64,000 bases of DNA from a virus. The notes under the pieces are model-generated. The model was not told where the DNA came from and searched no databases. It saw only the letters and a list, made by a program, of their open reading frames with translations. The stretch lies in IMG/VR virus record IMGVR_UViG_3300045988_058553, positions 119,095 through 183,094 of that record; one strand, written 5' to 3'. Below, one piece after another: positions 13,434 to 64,000 of this stretch (position 1 is its first letter; each line of letters starts with the position of its first letter). The translations under genes were made by a program, and so were the position numbers.

Positions 13434-13854
13434 CTACTACATATTTTAAGATTTCATAACTTTCTTCCAGACCTGCCCTATCATCTAGGAGGATATTATA
13501 ATAGGGTTTCTCAGAATTAGGAAATACAGGACTTTCATTTGTATATAGCTCAAAGTCTTCATCCAGACCTAATAATTTAGCAGTTTTCATCTGTTTAATA
13601 CATAGCTCTTGAAGATTTGTTTCACAGGTAAACAATATCAAATGAAATCCCAATTTATAACACTTATTAAGTAAATTTATGACTTCACTATAATCTCCTC
13701 CATTATTATGGTAATCGAAAATAGTATTATCAAAATCGAAAGCGACTATTAGCTTTCCGTATTTATGATACTCTTCTAATAGTCGTTTCTTGCAAGCTTC
13801 TTTCCCAAAAGGATGATTAAAGTCCACGGTCAATTCTTTGTCTGATTTCTTCAA
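13399..13854 (-). CDS. HAD-like phosphatase
   Basis: FDFDNTIFDY (DxDxT). Lies between the Prs-like and NAMPT-like genes. Confidence 0.4.
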   Translation of the reverse strand: MKKSDKELTVDFNHPFGKEACKKRLLEEYHKYGKLIVAFDFDNTIFDYHNNGGDYSEVINLLNKCYKLGFHLILFTCETNLQELCIKQMKTAKLLGLDEDFELYTNESPVFPNSEKPYYNILLDDRAGLEESYEILKYVVDEIKLNQQGNQ

Positions 13855-15367
13855 GAGAATATTCTTTCTTCAAGATACCATCTTCAAAGACAGTCTCTAA
13901 GCATCCCTCTTTTTCCTCCTCGATTGAGACCTGGTCGGTAGCAGTATACTTCCCATCCAGACATTTATAGACAGCAATCAAACCTTTCAAAGAGTTCTTA
14001 GTACCATCATCAGTTTTAGGATGTTTGAAGATTTCTTTCAATTCGCCATTTACTACGCAAGCAGTAGCCTTAATAGCAAACCCAAGACTATCTCTACTTG
14101 CATACTGATAGGAATATGAACCTACTCCCAGAACGAGATTACAAGCCGCCATATGAGCGTTTTCTAATCTCAAGTAGATTTGCTTTTGACGTTCCAGAGT
14201 AATAGAATCTCCATAAAGCAGACCAACCTTAGTGCTAGGATAACGGTAATCCTTTGAAGTAGTATTCCATCCGAAGATTTTACCAAGCATATAATATGCC
14301 CCATAATATTGACCTTCGGACACTTCAACATACTCTGCATCGTCGTTAAACGGAGCATAGCAGCAATAATACTTACCTTCTTTCATTCTGGTATTGAAGT
14401 GAGGATTAGTTCTCAACCCGCAGATTATATCTACTGGGTCTCCACTATCAGGACGGATTACTACTCTACCATCACGAGCCATAATGTCTTTCTTCAGCTT
14501 GGGCAAGAAATTTTCAATTACATTCCAGAAATCCCAAGTATCAGATACAATAGAAACAAACCCAGAAGGATACAAATCATTAATTAGACGTTTGAAAGTG
14601 CCCAGCTCATCTTCCTCCCCTCCAGCACACATTACAGAGTGTTCTGTTGCTGGAACTGTAGCAGCAATCAATTCCTCGTCTGAATTAGCTCCATAATATT
14701 CTTCCAAAGCAGCAATAGCTGGAATAGTTTCACTTCCCACAAAAGAAGTCATATGCGCCATACCAGATATAATTGCGGCTTCCATTCCCGCCATACCTCG
14801 CATTGAGAAATCATGACAACAAAAACCAAGATTTACATCTGTTGGAAAACCAGTCTTACAAGCATGACGATGTAGCTCTTTCTTATAAAGCCTAGCTCTA
14901 GTAGCAGATGTGCACGGCATCCACAAGGTACAGCTGATAATAGTCTCTAAGTAGTTAGTTAACCAAAAGAACTCGGGTAGGGTATTTGTAATGGTCATCA
15001 TGGGAACCCGAATAGGGCACACAGAACCTTCAGGAAGAGCCTTTATGCGAATTGGTAGATACCCAAGGTCATATAAAGCTTCAATATGTCTGTACCCAAC
15101 GGATTCAATACCAACAAAGTTGTTTACTCTACGATAGAACATCTCCACAGCTTCCTTCTTTGGTAAATTAAAGAAGTTTTTCTCAAACTGTTTAATGAGA
15201 TATTCTTTGATTAGGTATTGAATACCAAATACTACTGAACCTTCGGTTGCTTCTGGGAAGTATTTATTACTTCTAGGAGTCCAGTTACTATAAACTTGTT
15301 CAGTACCTTCGGGATACATTCTGTGATGGCCCAATTTGTAACCATCTGTAGCATTAATTATTTCCAT
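13817..15367 (-). CDS. nadV: nicotinamide phosphoribosyltransferase family protein (NadV/NAMPT or Namat-like)
   Basis: 516 aa, N-terminal DGYKLGHH motif typical of the NAMPT family. Length and overall sequence fit NadV. Confidence 0.6.
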   Translation of the reverse strand: MEIINATDGYKLGHHRMYPEGTEQVYSNWTPRSNKYFPEATEGSVVFGIQYLIKEYLIKQFEKNFFNLPKKEAVEMFYRRVNNFVGIESVGYRHIEALYDLGYLPIRIKALPEGSVCPIRVPMMTITNTLPEFFWLTNYLETIISCTLWMPCTSATRARLYKKELHRHACKTGFPTDVNLGFCCHDFSMRGMAGMEAAIISGMAHMTSFVGSETIPAIAALEEYYGANSDEELIAATVPATEHSVMCAGGEEDELGTFKRLINDLYPSGFVSIVSDTWDFWNVIENFLPKLKKDIMARDGRVVIRPDSGDPVDIICGLRTNPHFNTRMKEGKYYCCYAPFNDDAEYVEVSEGQYYGAYYMLGKIFGWNTTSKDYRYPSTKVGLLYGDSITLERQKQIYLRLENAHMAACNLVLGVGSYSYQYASRDSLGFAIKATACVVNGELKEIFKHPKTDDGTKNSLKGLIAVYKCLDGKYTATDQVSIEEEKEGCLETVFEDGILKKEYSLEEIRQRIDRGL

Positions 15368-21131: not shown

Positions 21132-21767
21132 TTACTCTGGAAGTATGCCGTACTTCCATATGTAGCCATAAGCATGAGTTATTTTATGATTGCAACAATC
21201 AGTGATATGTCTTTTGCAATTAACAGTTTTTGCTAGACCATTATCTACAAGCCATTTAGCTGCTTCCTCTCTTCCCCAGAAGTGCTATATATAATTGCCA
21301 GCCATATCAAATTGATCGATTTTCTTAGCAGACCCACCTCTGATTTTAATGCTATGAGCTTTCAATACCTTTCTTACAGTATCATCACTACATCCCACTT
21401 TCTCTGCAACTTTTTTGCAAGTATATCCCATATTGTATAGTTCGATTATCTCTTGATAATCATATAACTATGTTCCGTCTCCACCCTTAGTAGCATTATA
21501 GCCTTTGGAGCCATAAGTTTCCAACTCTTTTATCCAATATACCTCTCTTTCTGAGAGTATGTTTTCATCCTTTACATATTCTAATTCCTCTACTATAAAG
21601 TTTTCAACTCCATATTTATTCATAGCATCATATAATGGACGTTTTTCACATCTTTCTTTTCGAGAATCCTTGCAGTGTTCCTAAAATCTTTCCTATGTAG
21701 TAAAGAGGGTTTTACCAACGTATCTTTTATTGTTGATAATATTTGTAATGCAATAGATATATCCCAT
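21132..21767 (-). CDS. GIY-YIG homing endonuclease (copy A, 5 in-frame TAG codons)
   Basis: Starts MGYIYCITNIINNKRYVGKT (GIY-YIG) and contains KYGVENF...GYNATKGGDG. The only internal stops are TAG. Ends at TAA. Confidence 0.55.
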
Positions 21768-21824
21768 ATCATAAATTATTTATAACATTATTAATAATTG
21801 ATTGAATTAGCTTTACCCAAAACA

Positions 21825-25800: not shown

Positions 25801-26451
25801 TTAAACCCTTCTCTAACATAATATGGTGATTCGGACATAACCTCCGCAGGATTTTGCTTTTCCTACACAACAATCAATTATATGATTACTAGCAGAGTGT
25901 CTACTCTTTGATTTTCCTACTTCAACTAGCCAATCTGCGGCTTTCAGAGAACCAGGAAATTCCTAAATTTTGTTTCCAGCTTTATCATACTGAACAACAA
26001 TTCTACATTCACGTGCCTATTTATTAGCTCTTCCATCTATTCCGTGAGCTTTTAACACTAAGTACACAGTTTCCACTGAACAACCAATCTTTTCTGATAC
26101 CTCTTTACATAAATACCCTAAGTTATATAATTCAATAATTTCCTTGTAGTCATACAATATCTTCCCATCACCGCCTTTAGTGGCATTATATCCATCTTTA
26201 TAAGACTACAGTTTGTTTATCCAATATATTTCTCTATCTGATAGGGAGTTATCATCTGCTTCCTCTAGGCACTCAACTATGAAATTCTCAACCCCGTACT
26301 TATTCATGGCATCGTACAATGGTCTCTTTTCACATCTTTCCTTCTAACTATCTTGACAATGTTCTCTAAAACGCGCTTGTGGGTTTTGCGTAGTCTTTCC
26401 TACATAGCGCTTATTGTTAATCAAGTTTGTAATACAATAAATATATCCCAT
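25801..26451 (-). CDS. GIY-YIG homing endonuclease (copy B, in-frame TAG codons)
   Basis: MGYIYCITNLINNKRYVGKT...KYGVENF...GYNATKGGDG, with the C-terminus homologous to copy A. Four internal TAGs, terminates at TAA. Confidence 0.5.
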
Positions 26452-26492
26452 AATTTTCTTTTTTTATTAAACATTTAGTTTTAATCCAGAGT

Positions 26493-34384: not shown

Positions 34385-34398
34385 ATTTGTTAAGTTTG

Positions 34399-34470
34399 TT
34401 GGGCTACTAGGACTCGAACCTAGACTGACAGAATCAAAATCTGTAGTGCTAACCATTACACCATAGCCCA
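34399..34470 (-). tRNA. tRNA-Gln(TTG)
   Basis: Perfect acceptor TGGGCTA/TAGCCCA (U1:A72, Gln-like), anticodon arm ACAGA-TTTTGAT-TCTGT. Near-identical scaffold to the CTA suppressor at 51,273. Confidence 0.65.
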
Positions 34471-35684: not shown

Positions 35685-37643
35685 TTACTTCACTTCTTCA
35701 AACTCAGTAGCTTCTACTTGCTTCTTTCCGAACATTTCCTTTACTGTGTCAGCGAAAGGAATAGAACGTAATAAGTCAAGAGCAGGATTCAAGTTCTCAG
35801 CAGTCTTAGCCATGAAATTACCAGCGGTATTCTCATTACCATAAACAGTAACCTGTCCAAGGTGAATGTGTTCAAACATCTGAGCAGATGCCTGAGCAAT
35901 ACCGGCCAATTGGTCAACAGTCTTGTACTGAACCACCATTTGTGGAGTCAAGCCAGATTCAATCATCTTCTCAACTGCCAAGGCTGGAGCCATTTCGATA
36001 GCTTGAACCTTATCAGCTTCTGCCATCAATGATGCTCTCTTACCTTCAGCTTCAGCAAGCAATTTCTTGCGAGTACCTTCTGCCTCTGCTTCTAACTGCA
36101 GTTTAGTAGCGTCAGCTTTCGCTTCTGCTTCTTTCAAAATCTTTGCAGCTTCTGCTTCTGCTTCCAATACCGCTTTGGCTTTAATTGCTTCTGCTTCAAT
36201 AGTTACTCTCTCTTTTTGTTTCTGAGCAGGAACAATCATTTCAGCTTGAAGTTTTGCTTCCTCTGCCTTAGCAGCAGCTTCGTTAACCTCAATCTGGCGT
36301 TCTTGTTCTGTTTTGGCTACAGCCATTCTTGCTTCTACTTTAGAAGTACCAGCTACCTTTTCTGCTTCAGCTTGTGCCTGTGCAGCTTCTCCTTTTGCCT
36401 TTGATACTTCAATAGTTGCTTTCTGCTCAGCTACTCCAGCTTGCTTGTCAGCTTCTGCAGCCTTAATTCTCTTCTGAGACTCATACTCTGCAGTAGCAGC
36501 TTCTTGCTCATTAATTGCTTTCTGAGTGTCTGCTTCCTGCTTTTGCTTAGCTTGAGCAATACGAGTTTGCTTCAGAGCTTCAGCTTCAGCTTTCTTAGAA
36601 TCTGCTTCTGCCTTAGCTTTAGCTACATTAGCTTCTGCTTCTGCGTCAGCAGCAGCTTTCTTAGAAGCAGCCTCTGAAGCGGATTTCGCTACATTAGCTA
36701 TTCTCTGAGATTCAGCTTCAGCTTTAGCTGATTCTGCTTGAGTGTTTGCACGAGCAATACTAGCTTCTTGTTCCGCCTTCTGTTCAGCGATACCAGCTTG
36801 TTTGTTCTTTTCTGCTTCTGCCAAGCGAATAGCTTTCTCCTGATTAATCTCAGCAACCTTTACTTCCTGTTCTTGCTTAGTTTGAGCAACTGTAGTTTCT
36901 CTTTCCTTTTCAGCATCGGCTACGGCAATCTCACGCTGTTTGTTGGTTTCTGCAATCTGAATATCTCCTTTCTTCTTCTCTTCTGCAATGTCAGCCTGTG
37001 CCTGAGCAAGAGCTTTAGTTGCAGCTTTCTGACCAAGATTCTTGATATAGTTTGCATCGTCCGAGATATCAGCGTTGTTAATATTGATAATACTGAAACC
37101 TACCTTGTTCAACTCAGTTTCAATATTCTCTTTTGCCTTGCCGATAAATTTGATTCTATCAGCATTTATTTCCTCAATCGTCATTGTTGCCATCAAGCTT
37201 CTCACTTCACCAATGAGAATATCCTTGATTTGGTCTGAGATTTCAGAAGTTTTAGCTGTTAAGAATCTGCTTGCAGCGTTTTGCATTAGTACTTGATCGG
37301 TTCCTATACCAGTAGTTAATGTCACAGGAATCCTAACCTTAATCATTTGGCTGGATACTCCCTCTACCATTACCTGAATCTGAATAGGTTTCAAGGACAT
37401 TTTAGCCCAGTCTTGAATGACAGGCATTACGAATGTACCTCCGCCGTGGATGATTTTAGACGGCAGTATAACTTCCTCCGTTTTACCAGTCTTCTCGTTA
37501 ACTACCTTCTTCTTTCCTGCCTTACCAAATACTACCAGGATTTCATCACTAGCACACTTACGATACCGAGACAAAAGTCCGATAAAAGTTACAACTACTA
37601 AGAGTACAATAACACCCGCTACAATAAGAGTTTCTGTTGTCAT
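35685..37643 (-). CDS. flotillin/SPFH (band-7) family membrane protein
   Basis: N-terminal TM helix, SPFH-like region, then a ~350-aa Ala/Glu/Lys/Gln coiled coil (AEAE...KAEA repeats) and a flotillin-like C-terminus. Confidence 0.55.
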   Translation of the reverse strand: MTTETLIVAGVIVLLVVVTFIGLLSRYRKCASDEILVVFGKAGKKKVVNEKTGKTEEVILPSKIIHGGGTFVMPVIQDWAKMSLKPIQIQVMVEGVSSQMIKVRIPVTLTTGIGTDQVLMQNAASRFLTAKTSEISDQIKDILIGEVRSLMATMTIEEINADRIKFIGKAKENIETELNKVGFSIININNADISDDANYIKNLGQKAATKALAQAQADIAEEKKKGDIQIAETNKQREIAVADAEKERETTVAQTKQEQEVKVAEINQEKAIRLAEAEKNKQAGIAEQKAEQEASIARANTQAESAKAEAESQRIANVAKSASEAASKKAAADAEAEANVAKAKAEADSKKAEAEALKQTRIAQAKQKQEADTQKAINEQEAATAEYESQKRIKAAEADKQAGVAEQKATIEVSKAKGEAAQAQAEAEKVAGTSKVEARMAVAKTEQERQIEVNEAAAKAEEAKLQAEMIVPAQKQKERVTIEAEAIKAKAVLEAEAEAAKILKEAEAKADATKLQLEAEAEGTRKKLLAEAEGKRASLMAEADKVQAIEMAPALAVEKMIESGLTPQMVVQYKTVDQLAGIAQASAQMFEHIHLGQVTVYGNENTAGNFMAKTAENLNPALDLLRSIPFADTVKEMFGKKQVEATEFEEVK

Positions 37644-37658
37644 CTTTAAAAATTCTTT

Positions 37659-38186
37659 TTAGTTAAAATAATACTTTCCATTCTCAAATTTTGAAATTCT
37701 CACTTTGTCCCCGTTTTTATACGTCTTATGCTCTTCTTCAGCATAAGCTGACAATTCTTGAAGCATTCCATTTATCTCAACTAAGATAACAGAACTACCA
37801 CCAGAAATATCATTAGGGATAGTGATTGTTCCAATTCTCCCAACTAAGGCTTCACCCTTTTCAGGAATAACTTGATGTTGGAGTTTTAAACAAAGTTTAT
37901 ATAAGTAGTAAAGTATAACCACAAAAAGAATACCGCATATTAATGCGATTAAATAATCGTACCATTCTATAGAATGAGAAACGGAATGCTTAATACAAAG
38001 CCATCCACTTGCTCCCATTACAAAATGTACTAGTCCTTTAAAAGAGACAATATCACTCACATCCATGTCCAATTCTCCATCTAAATCTACATCTAAGTCA
38101 GTGTCGCCACCAAACCAAGAGAGTATGAACTGAACAATAAAAATGCCATACGAAATGGCTGCTAAGAGATAATAAGTTTCGCTCAT
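37659..38186 (-). CDS. NfeD-like membrane protein (SPFH partner, OB-fold C-terminus)
   Basis: Multi-TM N-terminus and a soluble C-terminal domain, encoded immediately upstream of the flotillin-like gene. This matches the classic NfeD-SPFH operon arrangement. Confidence 0.45.
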   Translation of the reverse strand: MSETYYLLAAISYGIFIVQFILSWFGGDTDLDVDLDGELDMDVSDIVSFKGLVHFVMGASGWLCIKHSVSHSIEWYDYLIALICGILFVVILYYLYKLCLKLQHQVIPEKGEALVGRIGTITIPNDISGGSSVILVEINGMLQELSAYAEEEHKTYKNGDKVRISKFENGKYYFN

Positions 38187-38533: not shown

Positions 38534-38794
38534 TCATTTGTTTAGTACTCTTCTTTTAACTACTCCTGTTCCATTACACATACTACACGATTCGGTATCA
38601 CAAAGAGCACCTGGACCTAGTGTAAGGATGCCTAATACAACTCTAGACCCAGCTGACATCTTTACTTGACCAATTCCATCACAATTTGGGCAATATATCT
38701 CTTCATACTTTATGGTATCAGTTTGATTGTGATTTACTACCTTATCGTGTGTGCATGAGGCAAGCAATAGTAGAATTACAATTAGTCTAGCCAT
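38534..38794 (-). CDS. small lipoprotein with CxxC motifs
   Basis: Signal peptide plus lipobox LLLASC, and two CxxC pairs (CPNCDG, CSMCNG). Confidence 0.4.
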   Translation of the reverse strand: MARLIVILLLLASCTHDKVVNHNQTDTIKYEEIYCPNCDGIGQVKMSAGSRVVLGILTLGPGALCDTESCSMCNGTGVVKRRVLNK

Positions 38795-39342
38795 TTAAAT
38801 TCTCCTACATTGAAGTGTCTGGCAAAACAAGCATCAAACACTAGCTTTCCAAACTGAGTTGACACATATTTAGCAATCTCTTTAGATTTGCACGCAAGCA
38901 TCCCGACATTGGAATAGGCACGGCCGACGCCAACGCTAGAATTGAAACAGCCGAGACCCGCATGGCCGCCATTAGCCGCGCCGCCGCCCACCAGCGCGAA
39001 TTTCTCGCCCTGATAGCTGAAATGTCCAATAACCTCCGCATCTTTCGGCACTGATTTCATTCTAAAGAACCGAACCCAAGGATACCATACAGTTCCAGTT
39101 AATAGATTAAACTTATGTCCTTCGTTTAAGGCATCAATAATTAATTGTAGCCTAGAGAGGGATTCTATAGATTGGTTTTCTCTCATGTATGTAGCAAGAC
39201 ATACTCCCATCTCGTTGGTAGCGTCCGTGAAGGATTTTATCCTTTCTGTAGAGCTACTAGGAACAATTTCTACTTTTCCAGTCTCTGCATTGTAAACTGG
39301 TTTGTAGCCATCTGGACATTCAATTTCAATAGTTCTTTTCAT
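38782..39342 (-). CDS. DGR variable protein 2 (remote target, contains VR1)
   Basis: 186-aa ORF. Residues ~LVGGGAANGGHAGLGCFNSSVGVGRAYSNVG are encoded by the GC-rich variable repeat at 38,902-38,994. Confidence 0.55.
   Translation of the reverse strand: MKRTIEIECPDGYKPVYNAETGKVEIVPSSSTERIKSFTDATNEMGVCLATYMRENQSIESLSRLQLIIDALNEGHKFNLLTGTVWYPWVRFFRMKSVPKDAEVIGHFSYQGEKFALVGGGAANGGHAGLGCFNSSVGVGRAYSNVGMLACKSKEIAKYVSTQFGKLVFDACFARHFNVGEFKWLD
38902..38994 (-). repeat. DGR variable repeat VR1
   Basis: Aligns codon-for-codon with the TR at 63,759-63,854. Every difference falls at a TR adenine, and non-A positions are identical. Confidence 0.8.
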
Positions 39343-39456: not shown

Positions 39457-39921
39457 TTATTCAAACAACGGCAATAACTTTTTACCAAGAATCTTTACCG
39501 CTTTCTGTGCATCAGCTACAGTTCTAAAATAAACAATACCTGGATATTTTACGTTTTGATGCATGACGACGTACACTCCTTTTATATCAGTTTCCGTCTT
39601 TCCAGATAGAGAAGAACCTTTTCCAAGAAAATAGCCAGTATTACCTTCTGTTTTGATCCATCCTTTATTTAGATAGTTAGCAACTATTTGTAAACTAGCT
39701 AGAGAACTGAGTTGTTCTGTCATGCTTGGAGGACATACTAATGTATTCCAAAAACCATAATCTTCTTCAGACTCTACTATCTCTTTAAAGGAAGGAATTA
39801 GCATTTCCTCACTAAATGCAGTAAGAGCTAATTTCTTCAAGTCTTCATTACCGCTTTCATACCATTCGCGTGCCTGCTCTAAAGTTACCTCAAGATAGGC
39901 TTTTGTCTTAATTCTATTCAT
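39457..39921 (-). CDS. hypothetical protein
   Basis: 154-aa ORF. Confidence 0.4.
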   Translation of the reverse strand: MNRIKTKAYLEVTLEQAREWYESGNEDLKKLALTAFSEEMLIPSFKEIVESEEDYGFWNTLVCPPSMTEQLSSLASLQIVANYLNKGWIKTEGNTGYFLGKGSSLSGKTETDIKGVYVVMHQNVKYPGIVYFRTVADAQKAVKILGKKLLPLFE

Positions 39922-41490: not shown

Positions 41491-42117
41491 TTAGTCTCTG
41501 AACTTCCACTTGTATTTATAGGCAGTTTTTGATTTGCCTTTACAACAGTTAGATATTTTCGAGAATCCTGTGTTATTTTTAGCGAAACCATTGTCACATA
41601 ACCAATTCATAGCTTCTGCAATACTATAAAAAGTTTGAATATAATTTCCAGCTAAATCATACTACATAACTATCTTTGAATCTCCTTTTCTAAGTTTTAC
41701 ATTATTTGTTTTTAGTACTTTGTAAATAATATCTTTACAACATCCTACTTTTTCGGAGATTTGTTGACTATTATATCCTAAGTTAGCTAGCTAAATAATT
41801 TCTTTATAATCATAAAGAATAGTACCATCTCCACCTCTGGAAGCATTATATCCATTAGAGCCATAAGTTCCTAATTCATTTATCCAAAAGATTTCTCTTT
41901 CAGATAATAGATTCTCATCTTCTACTTGCTCTAATTCTTCTATTATAAAGTTCTCTACACCATATTTATTCATGGCATCGTATAATGGACGCTTCTCGCA
42001 TCTTTCCTTTTGTGAATCTCTATAATGCTCTTTGAGACGTTCTTCTATAGACTATGTAGTTTTGCCTACATATCTTTTGTTATTAATTAAGTTTGTAATA
42101 CAATAAATATAATTCAT
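41491..42117 (-). CDS. GIY-YIG homing endonuclease (copy C, in-frame TAG codons)
   Basis: MNYIYCITNLINNKRYVGKTT-Q-SIEERLKEHY...KYGVENFIIEE...GYNASRGGDG. Three internal TAGs, ends at TAA. Confidence 0.5.
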
Positions 42118-42166
42118 AATTTTAGCTTTTAAGTTAGTTTGTAGATTATTAGCGTTACCCGAAACA

Positions 42167-47767: not shown

Positions 47768-47914
47768 AGTCAAAATGGAAATTAATAAAATAAGCAAAGG
47801 GTAACGACTAGACCTTCCTGTGCCACAATACTTTGAGTTATTTCACAACAACTGCATAGTCTCAGGGCATACCCATTATGGTCCGACAATAATATGAATA
47901 CTGCAACTTAGTAG

Positions 47915-57207: not shown

Positions 57208-59568
57208 ATGCCTAGAAAGAAAAAAATATTACCTGAAGAAATCTAGAATATAGTAGATTAGGTAAGAGAGAAAGAACAAAAAGAGGATGCCAAAGAAGCT
57301 AGAGAACTAGTATAGAAGATAAGAGAGGAAAGGGGCAAAAATGCTGATTATTGGGATGTAAAGAGAGGAGATAAGATAGAGGTATTTGACCCTACTTTAT
57401 CTTATGAAATAACTGGATATAGACCAATAGATGAAACACATGGTCTTGACTTCGACCCAGATTGGTTTACTGAGACCAGAGAAGTGTATAGAAAAACTGG
57501 AAAGTATTGTCCATATCTAAAAGATAGTAAGAGATATAATGAGTTTTGGAAGGAATAGTATAGAAGATGTAAATATGGAATGACTGTTAATGGTTATACA
57601 ATTACTGGAGATAATTATTTCTTCCTAAACTTCTACTAGCTTCCTATTATTGATGATAACAAGGCATCTGGAGAAGGAACAAGTAGTGACTTTCCTATAT
57701 TTTTCGCATCTCATTATATGTTCTTTCATTATCTATAGATGGCTAGAGTTCTGCATAAACACGCAGCTCTTATGAAAGCTCGTTCTATTGGATTCTCCGA
57801 AATAAATGCGTCCTTATCTGCAAGAATGTATTCAGTAATCAGAAGAAGCAGAGTAATGATTACCTGTTTTAATGATACCTTCCTTAAAGGTACTTTTAGT
57901 AAGTTTGATAATGCTTTAACATTCTTGAATACTTGTACAGGAGGAGGATTCTTCAAACTACGTTTGATTGACCAAGACTTAAGAAAGAAGTCTGGTAAAC
58001 AGATTAAGGTAAACGGACAGTTTGAGGATGTTGGATTTAAATCAGAAGTAGTTGGAATAAATGGAGCTAAGGCATCTAATATTCGTGGAGACCGTGTTGA
58101 CCTATTAATATACGATGAAGCGGGGTCTTGGCCCGGACTAGATACTGCTGTAGTGCAGGGACAAGAGCTTTGTGAAGTTCAGGGTAAACCTCGTGGAACA
58201 ATGTTATTTGGAGGTACTGGTGGTGATATGGGTGCTCCATTAGCAGGTCTTAAGAAGATATATTATAATCCAAAAGCTTACAAAGTTCTTCCATTTAGAC
58301 ATAATTATACCCAGGATGGGACTACTATTGAAAGTGGGTTCTTCATTCCATATTTTGTCTAGTCTCTAAATTCAGAATACATGGACCATAGAGGTGTATG
58401 TAATACAGTAGAATATAAAAAGTATCTATAGGAAGAGCGTGACAATTTATTAGCAGTTCCAGACGACTATCTAAAGAAGTGTGCCGAACGATGTTGGAAT
58501 GCAGAAGAAGCATTTAATCTTGAAGGTGTTAACAAGTTCAACAAGATTCTTATTGCGGACCAGTTAGCTAATATAAGACTTAAGAAAATAGGACCAAGAC
58601 CAGAATCTGGATACATAGACTACTTCTATAAAAACAATAAACACACCTAGGATAACATAGATGGTTTTAAATGGATTCCTAATATTAACGGAAAAGTAAA
58701 AATACTTGAACATCCTGTATGGTCTGATTTGTATAAAGAGTAGATGGATAAACTTAGATAGGAAGCCGAGGAAAGGGGAGAAGAATTTGAATCTCCAGCG
58801 TACAAAGAAATGCATGATTTATATGTTGCAGGAATAGACGGTATTGATATAGGAGCTAGTCAAACTTCAAAAGAAACAAGAGATCCTTCTGATTTCTGTA
58901 TAACTATAAAAAGAAGAGCATTTGGTCTAAACGAACCGTAGTATGTTGCTATGTATAAAGACAGACCTAATGACGTTAGAGAAGCTTATAAAATAGCTAT
59001 GTGTTTAGCTAGATACTATAATTGTAGAATAAACATAGAAGCTACCCGTGTAGGTATGATTACCTGGGCTAGAGAAAAGGGTTGTTTAAACTACTTTATG
59101 AAAAGACCTAGAGCTACTCTAACAGACGTTAAGAATGGAACTACTAAATAGTATGGAACACCTGCTACCAAAACTATTATAGAACAACATACTGATTTGA
59201 CTGCAGCCTTTATTGAGGATTTCTGTCATACTATATGGTTTGAAGAAATGTTAGACCAATTTACTGGATATAATGATGAGAATAAAGGTAAATTCGATAT
59301 TGTAGCCGCTGTAGGAATGACAGAATTGGCAGACTAGGAATTGTCAGGAAGATAGCCAGTGCTTGTTGAAAAAGAAGTTGAACAATTCCAAGATTATGGT
59401 TATTATTACGACGAGAGAGGAATCAAAAGATTTGGGGTTATACCAACTTCTAAGACTTTTGAAACTAACATACAAAAAAATGAATACGATGACCCATACA
59501 GAATTGAAACAAGTGATCCTAGGTTATATGAGAGACTTGTACAAAATGGAATACGTAGGTGGGCTTGA
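57208..59568 (+). CDS. terL: terminase large subunit (many in-frame TAG)
   Basis: Track ORFs 57,739, 58,951 and 59,359 are all in one frame with ATG 57,208 when TAG is read as sense. Walker-B-like LLIYDEAGSW and a Walker-A-like KARSIGFS. About 787 aa. Ends at TGA. Confidence 0.55.
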
Positions 59569-59824
59569 AATTCAGAACCTAGATCCAGTTGGTTATAAGG
59601 TATCATTTAACTTTGATAGGTCAGAGATGCCTTTAGTCATTATAGCTGATTTACCTGATGAAGAATTTCTCCCATTTATAAAGGAAGAATTAAGAAGTAG
59701 GAAGTTACAAAGAGTTAAATACTATAATGCAACTAAACTTCCTCCAGAACAGCATAATTTATGTTATGAAAGAAAAAGAACTGATAGACAAGACGAACGA
59801 GGCTATTGCGGAGCTTGTATATGA
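59531..59824 (+). CDS. hypothetical protein overlapping terL 3' end (alternative frame)
   Basis: Internal ATG of track ORF 59,363-59,824 (MRDLYKMEYVGG...). Overlaps both terL and the next gene, so it may not be expressed. Confidence 0.2.
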   Translation, partial: RDLYKMEYVGGLEIQNLDPVGYKVSFNFDRSEMPLVIIADLPDEEFLPFIKEELRSRKLQRVKYYNATKLPPEQHNLCYERKRTDRQDERGYCGACI

Positions 59825-61937
59825 TAAGTACGAATTATAGAAAGCCTATAATTACTATAACGGAAAGAGAGACCCAGAATAGTTTCGTTACCTGGAAGAA
59901 AACTTTGGAATAGGTAGTCCTACTTCTGTAGAATTTACACCATTACTAAAAAAGCACGTAGATGCTCTAGTAGGGGAATATCTAGGAACCCCTATCCTTC
60001 CGAAGATTTCTTGTAAGGATTCAGATACCATTAGTAATATCACCAGAGAAAAGTAGTTAGAAATAACTAAAGGGATAGTTAAATTTCTTAGAGACCATTT
60101 AAGTAATTCTATTCTGAAATTTATCGACGGAAAAGATATTACAGATAAAGCCGTGAAGACTTAGTTAGATAAAATTATTCAAGACATTGATTAGTCTTTT
60201 ATTTCTCAATATGAGATAGCTGCATAGAATATTATTCATTATATCATGTAGTCTAGAGAAACTGATTTAATAACTAAACTCCGATAGTTACTTACAGATT
60301 TATTAATTACTGGCTATACATTTTTCAGAGTAAAATCATCATCTTCTGGAACTAACATAGAAATAGAAGTTCTGAATCCTTTAAATACTTTCGTAGATAG
60401 GAATCCAGAATCTCCATATGTTAAAAATTCGTACAGAGTAGTAGTTAGAAAATGGATGAGTAAAAGCTAGATATTAGCTAAATACGGAAAAGAAATCTCT
60501 AGAGAAGATTTGAAAAGACTAAAAGACGAATGGAGAGCTGATGATTCGGCTGCAGTTTATAGAAGAGTTTATGGTGACACTTGTACTATAGTAAATGAAG
60601 ACTAGAATCATGAAACTATTCCTGGATATCCAGATAATGAATATAGTGCTCATAGATTTTAGTTAATTCCTGTTTATGATGTAGAGTGGATAGAAACTGA
60701 TGACGATTTTGTGATGTAGAGATACAATACTATTAGAATTGGAGAAGAAATATATATTCTGAGAGGTCTAGACAAGACTGTTATGAGGTCAAAAGATAAT
60801 CCTAATTTCTGCTCTTTGTCTGTGAATGGGGTATATTTTTTAAATCGTTCTCAACAACCATACTCCCTGATATTAAAATGTGCACATCTATAGGATAGAT
60901 ATGACTTGTTAAATTATTATAGGGATAACCTGATAGCTAACAGCGGTACTGCTGGAGTAATCATGGATATGTCATTGCTTCCTACTAACCTAGGCGTAAA
61001 ATGGCCAGAAAGAGTGTAGAAATGGTTAGCATACAAGAAGGGTGGTATCATGTGGATTGATTCCACTTAGGAGGGAAGAAATGACGGAGCGCAAGCACCT
61101 AACTAGATATACAATGGATTTGATGATACCTTAAAAGCTTAGGCTGTATAGGCTATTGAATTAGCAATTCAATCAGTAGAACAAACTACATCATCTATAA
61201 CTGGAGTATTTAGAGAAAGATTAAACGGAATAGAGACTCACGATGCTGTAACTAATATTAAGCAAGGTGTTACTAACTCTTACATAGTAACCAAGCATTA
61301 TTTCTAGTAGATGGACCTAATCACTTGTGAGATATTATTGGATAGTCTAAACTAGGCTAAAATAACATATAAGAAAGGATTGACTGGTACTATTATACTT
61401 GGAGATAAATACTAGCAGATATTTACAGCGCTTCCAGAATATTTTACGGTTACTGATTATGACATCCATATAACTTCTAGCTCTGAAGTAATGGAGGATT
61501 TACAAACTATTAAAGCTATTATTCCAGAGTTTGTTAAAAGTCAGCAAATGGATCCTGACATCATATTTGAAGCACTAACTGCTAAGAGTCTTACAGACCT
61601 TAAATATAAAGTTAAGAAAGCAGTATAGATTCGTAAAGAAGAAAACAATTAGCTATAGCAGCTATAGGAAAAACTGGAAGAAACTTCACAATAGGCATAG
61701 CAGTTATAGCAAGAACTATAGAAAGCTTAGTAGAAGATAGAAAGTTTGGATGAGTAGAGATTAGGATTAGAATAGCAGAAAATGTAGTTAGAATATAAGG
61801 TTAACTGGCTAAAAGTTCAATCCGATTCTACGTATAAAGATAGACAAATGGATATAGAAGAAAAGAGAACTGAAATAGAGTTGGCTTAGCTTCACGATGG
61901 AAATCCATATAATGACAAAATAAGACAATTATATTAA
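59766..61937 (+). CDS. putative portal protein (about 30 in-frame TAG)
   Basis: 723-codon frame from ATG 59,766 to TAA 61,935 with only TAG interruptions. Q-rich C-terminus if TAG=Gln. Size and position after terL suggest portal. Confidence 0.4.
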
Positions 61938-62132
61938 AATGGGAACAATTTGGATAGAAGGCAATTTAAAAGTTTGGCAAGGCCAGTGAAGATTATTTCT
62001 GAACAAGTCGAAACTAAAAAAGCTTGTATTTTATTAGAAGATAACAAAAAAGAGTCTAATAAAGAATCTTAGAATAAAAGTTATTAGAATGGAGATTATT
62101 AGAAAAATAACACATGGATTAAATAAGGTACA

Positions 62133-63680
62133 ATGGCAACTGATATCAAAATATCTCAAATGCCTTCTGCTGGTAAATTATCTGGAACTGAAATAATTCC
62201 TATTGTACAAGATGGAGTTAATAAATCCTCAACAGTAAATAAAATTAGAGAAGGCTTAGTTACTAATAATAAATTAGAAGAACAGATTAACACTCTTAAC
62301 TCTTCTTTGGGAGAGCTACAAAAAGAGCAATAGAGTCTAAGTAAACAAGTCACAGAGTTAAGCAGTAACGTAGACTTATACTCTTATGGAGTAGAATGGG
62401 ATATCACCGTATCTTCTCCTATCCTTACTAGAATAGGAAACCCACTGTTACATAAATCCCTCCCTATTTAGTCTGCTTACAGAGGATGTGTAGCAAATAA
62501 CGGTGTGGTAAATTACTATTTACATCCAGACGATTGGGCTTACAAAGAAGATGGAAGTACCCCTTCTGTGCTCGATGGAACTGATGGAACTGTAAGAGTT
62601 CACACTCCTAAATTTTATGGTAAATCAGGCTCTAATGGAAATAAAAGATGGGTTAGAATTTCTCTAGTAAAGCTTGATGATTCATGGGTAGAAATACCAG
62701 AACTATTAATTGACGCATATAGAAATACCGTTGATAATACTGTGTCAGCAACCCCTAAAGCTGTGTCCGTGGTCAATACTACAGAAGCATTTAGAGGTGG
62801 TGGAAATAGAGCACAATTCGATAAGTATCTAACTACTGAACTTGATACCAAAGATGCTTTTAGAAGCGATTTAGGAAAACCTAGAACTAATGTTTCTAGA
62901 GCTAATATGAGAACTTATGCTACAAATGCAGGTTCTGAATTATTATGCTATGAATATTATAAATGGATATTCTACTGGAACTATGTAATAGAATATGCTA
63001 ACTTTAACTCTCAGGCTGCCTATAATGCCGAGCTTACTTCTAATGGTTATCGTCAAGGAGGACTTGGTCCTGGAGTTACAGACTGGAGTAACTCTACTAC
63101 AAGTTGGTCTGGATATAATGGAACTTATCCAATAACGCCATGTGGGTATTGTAATGATATTGGTAACTTCACTGGAATCAAAGATTTAGTTATTCCAGAA
63201 TGTACTGCAACAAACGAAGCAGATATAGTAGCGACTAAGACATTTAAAGTTCCAAGATGGAGAGGTTTTGATAATCCATTTGGAGATATTTGGACAAACC
63301 TAGATGGAGTAGTTATTCAAAGAACTGCGGCAAATGAAATCAGTAGTGTATATACTACCACAAACAAGGAAGAGTTTACTGACGTAATTGGCAATAAGAC
63401 CGTAGCAGGATATGAGGTAGCGCAAGATGGATACATTAAAGAGTTTGACTTGGGAGAAACGGCAGAGATTATACCATCTTCTTGTACTGGAACCTCAACT
63501 ACAACTTATATGTGTGATTACCACTATTGCAACGTTAGCTCTACAGCGCTTCGCACGCTGCGGGTGGGCGGCAGCGCGGATGGTGGCGGCGGTGCGGGTC
63601 TCGGCTGTTTCTATTCTAACGGTGGCGTCGGCGTTGCCGGTTCCTCTGTCGGGTTCAGGACTCTGAATAGAGTATCTTAA
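62133..63680 (+). CDS. tail-fibre-like DGR variable protein 1 (contains VR2, 2 in-frame TAG)
   Basis: Track ORFs 62,133 and 62,505 are one frame via TAG. The C-terminus ...VGGSADGGGGAGLGCFYSNGGVGVAGSSVGFRTLNRVS is typical of CLec-fold DGR targets. Confidence 0.6.
63558..63653 (+). repeat. DGR variable repeat VR2
   Basis: 32 codons, in frame at the 3' end of the 62,133 gene. 29 substitutions against the TR, all at TR adenines (codons 3-32). Confidence 0.85.
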
Positions 63681-63758
63681 GATATACAATATAAAAATCG
63701 ATTTAGATGATAAATCGTAGGATATTACTTCTAAAAACCGTTGATTGGCAAAAAAGTA

Positions 63759-63854
63759 CTGCTAGTAGGCAGCAACGCGAATAATGGCAGCAATGCAGGT
63801 CTCAGCTATTTCAATTCTAACAATGACGTCAGCAATGCCAATTCCAATGTCGAG
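63759..63854 (+). repeat. DGR template repeat (TR)
   Basis: A-rich and AAT/AAC-codon-rich cognate of VR1 and VR2, 79 nt downstream of the target gene's stop. Confidence 0.85.
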
Positions 63855-64000
63855 TTATTATATATTTAGAAACATTTTATTATTTTTTTTTAGTTTGCTA
63901 AGTAATATCCTTGCCTCTAGGCAAAAAATAACGTAGTGTTGAATGAAGGGTGTTAGTAGGTTATCTCGAACGCTTCCGATGAAATATATAAAAAATTGAA

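What the first reader, a model, noticed from the sequence alone, without database searches (positions are those of the whole stretch)
38782..39342. Remote DGR target inside the tRNA island on the opposite strand, marked by a GC-rich island
The 38,900-39,000 stretch is a GC-rich island (GCCGCCGCCCACCAGCGCG...) in an otherwise AT-rich genome. It is the reverse complement of the VR2/TR family. Spurious ORFs in other frames (38,841-39,041, 63,427-63,666, 63,495-63,689) arise from the same GC island. A trans-acting DGR diversifying a second, small (186-aa) protein far from the cassette suggests a second receptor-binding or host-interaction protein.
Basis: seen in the sequence. Interest (0 to 1): 0.7.

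Follow-up and report, generated by a model that had tools for sequence, protein, structure and literature searches.

The report
Remote hypermutated gene in gut phage
A small gene of unknown function, 25 kb from a crAss-like gut phage's diversity-generating retroelement and on the other strand, is rewritten by that element as intensively as the tail-fibre gene, so one template diversifies two different proteins (three in one related genome).

Summary
Window 38900-38995 (- strand) is a variable repeat (VR1). It matches the template repeat (TR) at 63761-63856 at 65 of 66 non-adenine positions and differs at 21 of its 30 adenines. The cassette-proximal VR2 (63560-63655) shows the same pattern. VR1 lies in frame inside the 186-aa ORF 38782-39342. 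The reverse transcriptase starts at the last bases of the window and is complete in relatives that carry an identical TR.

VR1 is a live target. In about 250 near-identical homologues the scaffold is conserved (dN/dS about 0.2), but the ten AAY-templated codons are only 13% identical between genomes, the same as VR2. TR-specific non-adenine variants are copied into both VRs.

The target belongs to an uncharacterised family of about 200-aa phage proteins (phrog_11581). Its members sit in replication/tRNA gene blocks. A confident structure model (pLDDT 93) matches no solved structure and no C-type lectin. Three more divergent lineages of the family are hypervariable at the same columns, and one related genome has one TR and three VRs.

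Non-adjacent phage DGR targets are already known, including a non-structural one in Quimbyvirus. This is therefore a new member of a known kind, with a possibly new target scaffold. Its function is unknown.

The parts
38782..39342 (-). Remote DGR target gene: 186 aa, stop TAA, no in-frame TAG. Member of the phrog_11581 family of small phage proteins.
   Evidence: ORF. 833 homologues. phrog_11581, E 1e-14. Scaffold dN/dS 0.16-0.26. AF2 model pLDDT 93.3.
38900..38995 (-). VR1, the variable repeat, encoding residues about 117-148 (LVGGGAANGGHAGLGCFNSSVGVGRAYSNVG).
   Evidence: 21 A-site mismatches and 1 non-A mismatch to the TR. Per-column entropy 2.9-3.5 bits at AAY-templated codons in 77 near relatives. 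Same pattern in 28 genomes.
38873..38891 (-). Candidate hairpin downstream of VR1 (GCAAATCT-AAAG-AGATTGC). Weak, inside coding sequence.
   Evidence: Fold -3.8 kcal/mol, z -0.19, not better than shuffles. One stem pair is broken by a synonymous G>A change in about ten relatives. Listed only as a candidate.
63761..63856 (+). Template repeat (TR): non-coding, 30 adenines, 10 AAY codons in the VR reading frame.
   Evidence: Identical (96/96) in 20 of 28 related genomes.
63560..63655 (+). VR2, the cassette-proximal variable repeat, at the 3' end of the tail-fibre-like gene.
   Evidence: 25 A-site mismatches and 1 non-A mismatch.
62133..63680 (+). Tail-fibre-like target gene: 515 codons, with two in-frame TAG at 62331-62333 and 62469-62471 that must be read through.
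   Evidence: Translation. Open frame only if TAG is read as sense. phrog_5302 'tail protein', E 7e-69.
63996..64000 (+). First bases (TTG) of the DGR reverse transcriptase gene, cut by the window end.
   Evidence: Relative L002 has the identical TR. It is followed by a 425-codon frame with IGNYLSQ and YADD motifs and in-frame TAGs. RVT_1, E 2e-18.
51273..51345 (+). Amber suppressor tRNA (anticodon CUA), needed to translate the RT and the tail-fibre target but not the 186-aa target.
   Evidence: ARAGORN. 77% complementary to tRNA-Gln(UUG) at 34398-34470 (I3). TAG counts in late genes.

Best explanation
VR1 is a live, non-adjacent target of the phage's single diversity-generating retroelement.

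Mechanism. The TR (63761-63856) is transcribed. The RT encoded just downstream (starting at 63996) copies it into cDNA and misincorporates opposite adenines. That cDNA replaces the homologous 96 nt in two places: VR2 in the adjacent tail-fibre gene, and, in trans, VR1, which is 24.8 kb away on the other strand inside the 186-aa gene. The TR carries ten AAY codons, so ten residues of a surface segment can each become any of about 15 amino acids without creating stop codons.

Timing (inferred). The RT and the tail fibre need amber suppression. The 186-aa gene does not. Diversification probably happens late in infection, and the new VR1 allele is expressed in the next infection.

Function of the protein (inferred, low confidence). 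It is a variable-specificity binding protein of a conserved, non-structural phage family. My estimates are about 0.4 that it acts inside the infected cell on variable host factors, about 0.25 that it is a virion-associated or accessory adhesin, and the rest for something else.
For: Shown here:
- Adenine-specific TR/VR1 pattern (21 A-site against 1 non-A mismatch), with VR1 in the same frame as VR2.
- An RT with DGR motifs lies directly after an identical TR in relatives.
- In 28 independent genomes that hold both loci, VR1 has 16-25 A-site changes, and 24 of the 28 have no more than 3 non-A changes.
- TR variants C16T/G28T/C43T/C91T in two genomes are present in both their VR1 and their VR2.
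- Among 96+127+23 scaffold-identical homologues, 243 of 246 VR peptides are distinct. Only residues reachable from AAY codons occur at these sites in VR1.
- VR1 and VR2 of one genome are independent: 27 of 230 sites identical, null 28.3 +/- 4.4.
- Scaffold dN/dS is 0.16-0.26.
- A related genome has one TR and three VRs: tail fibre (18 A-site / 1 non-A) and two small paralogues (18/2 and 22/3).

For a non-structural role:
- Genomic context in the window and in seven other loci from six other phage contigs.
- No in-frame TAG, against 2-36 TAG in the late genes.
- A precedent in Quimbyvirus (PMC8008677).
Against: - The RT itself is not in the window; only its first 5 nt are.
- No within-sample read data were available. 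Variation was measured between assemblies.
- No convincing IMH or hairpin was found next to VR1.
- No Avd-like accessory gene was seen between target and RT. This was not searched exhaustively.
- Nothing tests expression time, location or ligand of the protein.
- Absence of TAG in a 186-codon gene is only contextual evidence.
Confidence: 0.9

Rival explanations
1. VR1 is a relic: a once-targeted or duplicated VR that no longer receives cDNA.
For: One non-A mismatch at the 3' edge. No clear IMH or hairpin.
Against: VR1 is as variable as VR2 between near-identical genomes (0.129 against 0.131 identity at AAY sites). The variation is confined to TR-adenine positions. Recent TR point variants are found in VR1. 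The frame is intact and the scaffold is under purifying selection.
Confidence: 0.02
2. VR1 varies because of recombination or gene conversion with VR2 (or between co-infecting phages), not because cDNA homes to it directly.
For: VR1 and VR2 share 96 nt of homology. The scaffold of the small gene shows allele replacement between genomes (dS about 1 where the tail-fibre protein is 93-94% identical).
Against: VR1 and VR2 within a genome are no more alike at hypervariable sites than random pairs. VR1 keeps its own fixed edge differences: C2T in 23 of the 24 analysed relatives and T95A in 23 relatives plus the window. Conversion from VR2 would erase these. Nearly every genome has a unique VR1.
Confidence: 0.04
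3. The 186-aa protein is a second receptor-binding or adhesin component of the virion. The DGR mechanism is the same; only the role differs.
For: DGR targets in phages are usually tail proteins (PMC8144416). Two-target phage DGRs with two adhesin-like proteins exist (tentaclins, PMC10743442). The protein has no signal peptide and could be packaged.
Against: The gene lies in the opposite-strand block with helicase, NAMPT, radical-SAM, SPFH and tRNA genes. Homologues in six other phage contigs lie beside helicases, NrdD, RNA ligase, primase and NUDIX genes. It shows no similarity to tail proteins outside the VR. VR1 and VR2 show no convergence.
Confidence: 0.25
4. The repeat in the tRNA island is an assembly artefact, caused by mis-joined reads from the hypervariable tail-fibre VR.
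For: Hypervariable repeats can break or mis-join assemblies. Four of 28 VR1 and three of 28 VR2 comparisons show more than 3 non-A mismatches (6-17); one of them comes from a shortened gene, which points to an indel.
Against: The same gene, with the same unique flanks, orientation and distance of about 25 kb, is found in at least 28 independent assemblies and about 900 protein records. The VR continues in frame into 38 further conserved codons.
Confidence: 0.01

Closest known systems
Bordetella phage BPP-1 DGR (Mtd/TR/Brt), the prototype
   Same: RT next to a non-coding TR. Adenine-specific TR-to-VR differences. AAY codons. VR near the 3' end of a tail-fibre gene (here VR2).
   Different: BPP-1 has one adjacent target, an Avd accessory protein, and a defined GC-rich IMH plus hairpin. 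Here there is a second target 24.8 kb away on the other strand. No Avd was seen. TR/VR homology ends abruptly at TGTCG(A/G)G. The RT is amber-recoded.
Quimbyvirus ('Quimbyviridae') DGR with two targets (Benler et al. 2021, PMC8008677)
   Same: A gut Bacteroidetes phage in which one TR serves one target in the structural module and a second, distal target on the opposite strand among non-structural genes. Activity was inferred from A-site variation among near-identical genomes.
   Different: It is a different phage family (about 75 kb, myovirus-like) with a frameshifted RT. Its distal target is annotated as a C-type lectin protein in a methyltransferase/nuclease island. Here the distal target is a phrog_11581 protein with no detectable C-type lectin fold, in a tRNA/replication block, and it is duplicated in a related genome.
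[quoted passage not shown]
   Same: Large (about 150-190 kb) crAss-like genomes with amber or opal recoding, suppressor tRNAs, many tRNAs, and a cassette of tail-fibre gene-VR-TR-RT with a GxxxSQ RT that contains amber codons and usually no Avd. The cassette seen here matches this description.
   Different: That paper describes only cassette-adjacent tail-fibre targets (plus extra TR/VR pairs in two phages). The passages returned by my term searches of it do not mention a remote small-protein target; I did not read the whole paper. Whether this window belongs to that group rests on gene architecture and a distant TerL match, not on a phylogeny.
Non-adjacent and remote DGR targets in bacteria and prophages (Treponema denticola; Wu et al. 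2018 survey, PMC5758913; PMC4891356)
   Same: One TR serves several VRs away from the RT. In phage-associated DGRs, non-adjacent targets lie within 50 kb, as here.
   Different: Those targets carry recognisable FGE-sulfatase, DUF1566 or C-type lectin domains. The present family has none by Pfam, even at E <= 10.
Two-target phage DGRs with tentaclins (PMC10743442)
   Same: Two structurally different proteins are diversified from one TR. VR1 and VR2 were compared within genomes.
   Different: Both tentaclin-system targets lie inside the cassette and are C-type lectin adhesins. Here the second target is remote, small and not adhesin-like.

Membership tests
Diversity-generating retroelement (DGR) | TR/VR pair whose differences fall almost only at TR adenines | tested here: met
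   VR1: 21 A-site and 1 non-A. VR2: 25 and 1. The same holds in 28 related genomes and in a three-VR related genome.
Diversity-generating retroelement (DGR) | Reverse transcriptase of the DGR clade (RVT_1 with [I/L]GxxxSQ and YxDD motifs) next to the TR | tested here: met
   Only the first 5 nt are in the window. In L002 (TR 96/96 identical) the following frame has IGNYLSQ and YADD and hits RVT_1 with E 2e-18. No RT phylogeny was made.
Diversity-generating retroelement (DGR) | VR lies in frame in a protein-coding gene, with TR adenines concentrated in AAY codons | tested here: met
   The TR reads LVGSNANNGSNAGLSYFNSNNDVSNANSNVE in the frame of both VRs, with 10 AAY codons.
Diversity-generating retroelement (DGR) | Ongoing diversification: hypervariability confined to the VR in natural populations | tested here: met
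   Entropy 2.9-3.5 bits at templated codons against about 0 in the scaffold. 243 of 246 VR peptides are distinct. This was measured between assemblies, not by within-sample read mapping.
Diversity-generating retroelement (DGR) | Target-recognition elements at the 3' end of the VR (IMH, then a hairpin/cruciform) | tested here: inconclusive
   The shared 3' motif is only TGTCGG. The VR2 flank has a 5-bp stem (TTCAG/CTGAA). The VR1 flank has an imperfect 7-bp stem. Neither folds better than shuffles, and the VR1 stem is not strictly conserved.
Diversity-generating retroelement (DGR) | Accessory variability determinant (Avd) | not tested
   No small ORF lies between VR2, TR and RT in L002. No dedicated Avd profile search was done. 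PMC12386605 reports that most Zeta crAss-like cassettes lack Avd.
C-type lectin-fold DGR variable proteins (Mtd/TvpA/TaqVP type) | The VR is displayed on a C-type lectin (or FGE-sulfatase/DUF1566) fold | tested here: not met
phrog_11581 (small phage proteins of unknown function) | Significant match to the family profile over most of its length | tested here: met
   E 1e-14, residues 25-174 on profile positions 37-193 of 200. 387 clusters at 50% identity with E <= 1e-3.
Crassvirales / Zeta crAss-like phages | Hallmark gene phylogeny (TerL, portal, MCP) and genome architecture | tested here: inconclusive
   TerL matches crAss-like phages at only 26-29% identity; the best hits (42-45%) are unannotated faecal phage records. 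The architecture fits PMC12386605: two opposed gene blocks, amber recoding, 21 tRNAs, a 183-kb contig. No tree was built.

The most novel reading that the evidence does not exclude
The phrog_11581 family is a previously unrecognised scaffold for DGR hypervariation that is not a C-type lectin. It would be expressed from the non-recoded early/middle gene block of large crAss-like phages. It would act inside the infected cell as a programmable binder of variable host factors, for example defence proteins. The DGR would then serve counter-defence as well as adsorption.
Probability: 0.2. Interest if true: 0.85.

Novelty: new member of a known kind. Interest (0 to 1): 0.5.

Why it matters
- Large DGR surveys look only near the RT and state that they miss remote targets (PMC8144416). 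The term-search passages I read from the paper on DGRs in Zeta crAss-like phages describe only the tail-fibre target.
- This locus shows that one of the most abundant groups of gut phages spends its hypermutation machinery equally on a second protein, and on a third in one related genome. That protein is not a tail fibre.
- If the predicted fold holds, it is a compact (about 150-residue) new scaffold that tolerates about 10^12 variants. This would interest protein engineers and test the idea that DGRs use only C-type lectin folds.
- The protein is also a concrete candidate for asking what phage DGRs do beyond changing host receptors.

Tried and rejected
- Megablast and tblastn of the locus and protein against the GenBank phage collection found no match.
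- Exact look-up of the 391-aa VR2 ORF failed, because the real gene is amber-recoded and longer.
- The first AF2 run, with 103 near-identical sequences, gave pLDDT 55 and was discarded. A diverse alignment fixed this.
- The afdb50 fold library was unavailable.
- Sequence and profile searches of the PDB with A2, A4 and the tail-fibre ORF gave nothing meaningful. NCBIfam gave nothing.
- Idea: the overlapping downstream ORF (about 85 aa) is a conserved partner. Rejected, because the ORFs in that position in other phages are not homologous.
- Idea: VR1 and VR2 converge on the same sequence and therefore the same ligand. Rejected.
- Idea: a conserved hairpin marks VR1. Not supported.
- Idea: the second '186-aa' gene kb away in L001 is a paralogue. 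Rejected; it has in-frame stops and no family match.
- The GC bump as a marker of DGR targeting in distant family members is not diagnostic, because Gly/Ala codons also raise GC.

Full report
**1. The observation**

The stretch 38,800-39,100 is a real compositional outlier. 200-nt windows there reach GC 0.52-0.545, against 0.315-0.415 around them. With 96-nt windows (mean 0.355, sd 0.058) only three places in the 64 kb reach 0.58: a tRNA-Ser gene, 38884-39059 and 63499-63678.

The repeat finder links the island, as a reverse complement, to two stretches near the window end: 63747-63852 (106 nt, 75%) and 63560-63653 (94 nt, 83%).

In ungapped register the template repeat (TR) is 63761-63856, 96 nt with 30 adenines.
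- VR1 (38900-38995, - strand) differs at 21 TR adenines and at one other base.
- VR2 (63560-63655) differs at 25 adenines and one other base.
- Nothing else in the window matches the 66 non-adenine positions.

The gene sits between tRNA-His and tRNA-Ser/Trp in a run of 21 tRNA genes. The island is GC-rich because TR adenines are mostly replaced by G. GC is 0.448 in the TR, 0.646 in VR1 and 0.688 in VR2. Over 24 relatives, TR-A positions in VR1 read G 346, A 182, T 127, C 60.

**2. The cassette**

The window is part of ENA contig ERZ27260978 k119_131173, 183,094 bp.

The + strand genes beyond 57 kb are open only if TAG is read as sense:
- 57190-59568: TerL-like, 15 TAG.
- 59694-61937: 36 TAG.
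- 62133-63680: 515 codons, 2 TAG.

The last of these ends in VR2 and matches phrog_5302 'tail protein'. A tRNA(CUA) at 51273-51345 resembles the phage's own tRNA-Gln.

The RT starts at about 63996 and is cut by the window end. In relative L002 the TR is identical. It is followed by a 425-codon amber-containing frame with IGNYLSQ and YADD motifs that hits RVT_1 at E 2e-18.

TerL is 26-29% identical to crAss-like phages. The architecture matches published Zeta crAss-like DGR cassettes (PMC12386605).

**3. VR1 is live**

The 186-aa protein has 833 homologues. In 77 near relatives the scaffold is almost invariant. Residues 121, 123, 124, 127, 134, 136, 137, 141, 143 and 145 have 2.9-3.5 bits of entropy. 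Residue 132 is Y/F/S/C, residues 120/126/131/140 are G/S(/C), and residue 138 is G/D. This is exactly what adenine mutagenesis of AAY, TAT, AGC and GAC codons gives.

In 28 IMG/VR genomes that hold both loci, about 25 kb apart and in opposite orientation:
- The TR is 96/96 identical to the window's in 20 genomes.
- VR1 carries 16-25 A-site changes, and 24 genomes have no more than 3 non-A changes.
- Four TR point variants (C16T, G28T, C43T, C91T) seen in two of these genomes are present in both their VR1 and their VR2.

Pairwise identity at the ten AAY codons is 0.129 for VR1 and 0.131 for VR2. In VR1 only AAY-reachable residues occur at these codons. 243 of 246 scaffold-identical homologues have distinct VR peptides.

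VR1 and VR2 of the same genome are independent: 27 of 230 sites identical, null 28.3 +/- 4.4. Scaffold dN/dS is 0.16-0.26. These results exclude a dead target, an assembly artefact and simple VR2-to-VR1 conversion.

**4. What the target is**

There are no Pfam, NCBIfam or PDB sequence matches. It matches phrog_11581, a family of unknown function. An exhaustive profile search finds 387 clusters at 50% identity, mostly proteins of 170-220 aa.

With a diverse alignment, AlphaFold2 gives pLDDT 93.3 and pTM 0.86. The model comprises:
- an N-terminal beta-hairpin;
- three helices;
- a three-stranded sheet leading into the VR-encoded meander;
- two C-terminal helices and a final strand.

**5. Context and family-wide targeting**

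The gene lies in the - strand block with helicase, NAMPT, radical-SAM, SPFH and tRNA genes. Family members in other phage contigs lie beside PIF1 helicase, NrdD and dUTPase; RNase H and Band_7; NUDIX, PNKP and RNA ligase; helicase and primase; and in tRNA-rich regions. None has an RT within 10 kb.

The upstream neighbour 39457-39921 is a partial paralogue that matches only the N-terminal half of the family profile (E 9e-12).

I clustered 441 family proteins by scaffold identity. All six groups of at least 8 members have 92-97.5% scaffold identity but only 13-24% identity at the hypervariable columns. Three of these groups have scaffolds only 29-38% identical to the window protein.

One contig carries two paralogous small targets 4.9 kb apart. 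Genome IMGVR_UViG_3300045988_106556 has one TR (30 A) and three VRs: tail fibre (18 A-site / 1 non-A) and two small proteins (18/2 and 22/3).

Other members appear not to be diversified. P0283, for example, is found unchanged on nine contigs read, including records from three JGI samples.

**6. Mechanism, shown and inferred**

Shown:
- the TR/VR relationship;
- the RT;
- population hypervariability confined to templated positions;
- transfer of TR variants to both VRs;
- independence of the two VRs;
- purifying selection on the scaffold.

Inferred from the established BPP-1 model (my own knowledge, and PMC5758913): TR RNA is copied by adenine-error-prone reverse transcription, and the cDNA homes in trans to both VRs.

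Not resolved: the homing signal. TR/VR homology ends at TGTCG(A/G)G, and neither flank folds better than shuffled sequence.

Inferred from amber recoding: the RT and the tail fibre need the suppressor tRNA, but the 186-aa gene does not. It may therefore be expressed earlier than the machinery that rewrites it.

**7. Comparison and novelty**

Non-adjacent targets within 50 kb are common in phage-associated DGRs (PMC5758913). Quimbyvirus already has one structural and one distal, opposite-strand, non-structural target (PMC8008677).

New here:
- an unreported remote target in large crAss-like phages;
- its protein family;
- recurrent targeting and duplication of that family;
- the apparent absence of a C-type lectin fold.

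I file it as a new member of a known kind. It would become a new variant if the fold result is confirmed.

Noticed in passing
window 57190-63680 (+) and tRNA 51273-51345 (+): Late genes are amber-recoded: 15, 36 and 2 in-frame TAG in three genes. The tRNA(CUA) is 77% complementary to the phage's own tRNA-Gln(UUG) at 34398-34470, which suggests TAG is read as Gln. The - strand block is open in the standard code.
   Followed up: partly
window 47914-47984 (-): ARAGORN calls a tRNA with anticodon UUA (an ochre-suppressor type). Reading TAA as sense does not lengthen any ORF in 49.5-64 kb, so its role is unexplained.
   Followed up: partly
window 39457-39921 (-): The 154-aa ORF directly upstream of the target (across tRNA-His) matches only the N-terminal half of the target's family profile (E 9e-12). 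It has a different C-terminal half with no VR, so it is a modular partial paralogue.
   Followed up: partly
window 38534-38794 (-): An 86-aa ORF overlaps the target's stop codon by 13 nt. It has a lipoprotein-like signal (LLLLASC) and weak CxxC...CxxC DnaJ-type zinc-finger hits. ORFs in the same position in other phages are not homologous.
   Followed up: partly
window 35685-38186 (-): A 652-aa SPFH/Band_7 protein with a long Ala/Glu/Lys-rich repeat region sits next to a 175-aa NfeD-like membrane protein. Band_7 genes also lie 5-7 kb from family members in two other phages (L123, L128).
   Followed up: no
window 21513-21797, 26200-26481, 41863-42147: Three paralogous stretches of about 280 nt (60-77% identity) lie in the tRNA island. 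The copy at about 41.9-42.1 kb lies in a gene with a GIY-YIG domain, so these are probably homing-endonuclease copies.
   Followed up: no
L109/L002, L101/L003 and similar pairs, compared with the window: Genomes whose tail-fibre target is 93-94% identical to the window's carry a small-target scaffold with dS of about 1 and about 74% protein identity. The differences concentrate in residues 30-68. This looks like allele replacement at this locus.
   Followed up: partly
L127 10001-10561 and 14899-15462; IMGVR_UViG_3300045988_106556 (L136-L138, L046): Related phages carry two paralogous small targets 4.9 kb apart. In contig 106556 one TR serves three VRs (tail fibre plus both small proteins).
   Followed up: yes
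window 13817-15367 (-): The phage encodes a nicotinamide/nicotinate phosphoribosyltransferase (NAMPT_N + NAPRTase). A homologue also lies near the family member in L124.
   Followed up: no
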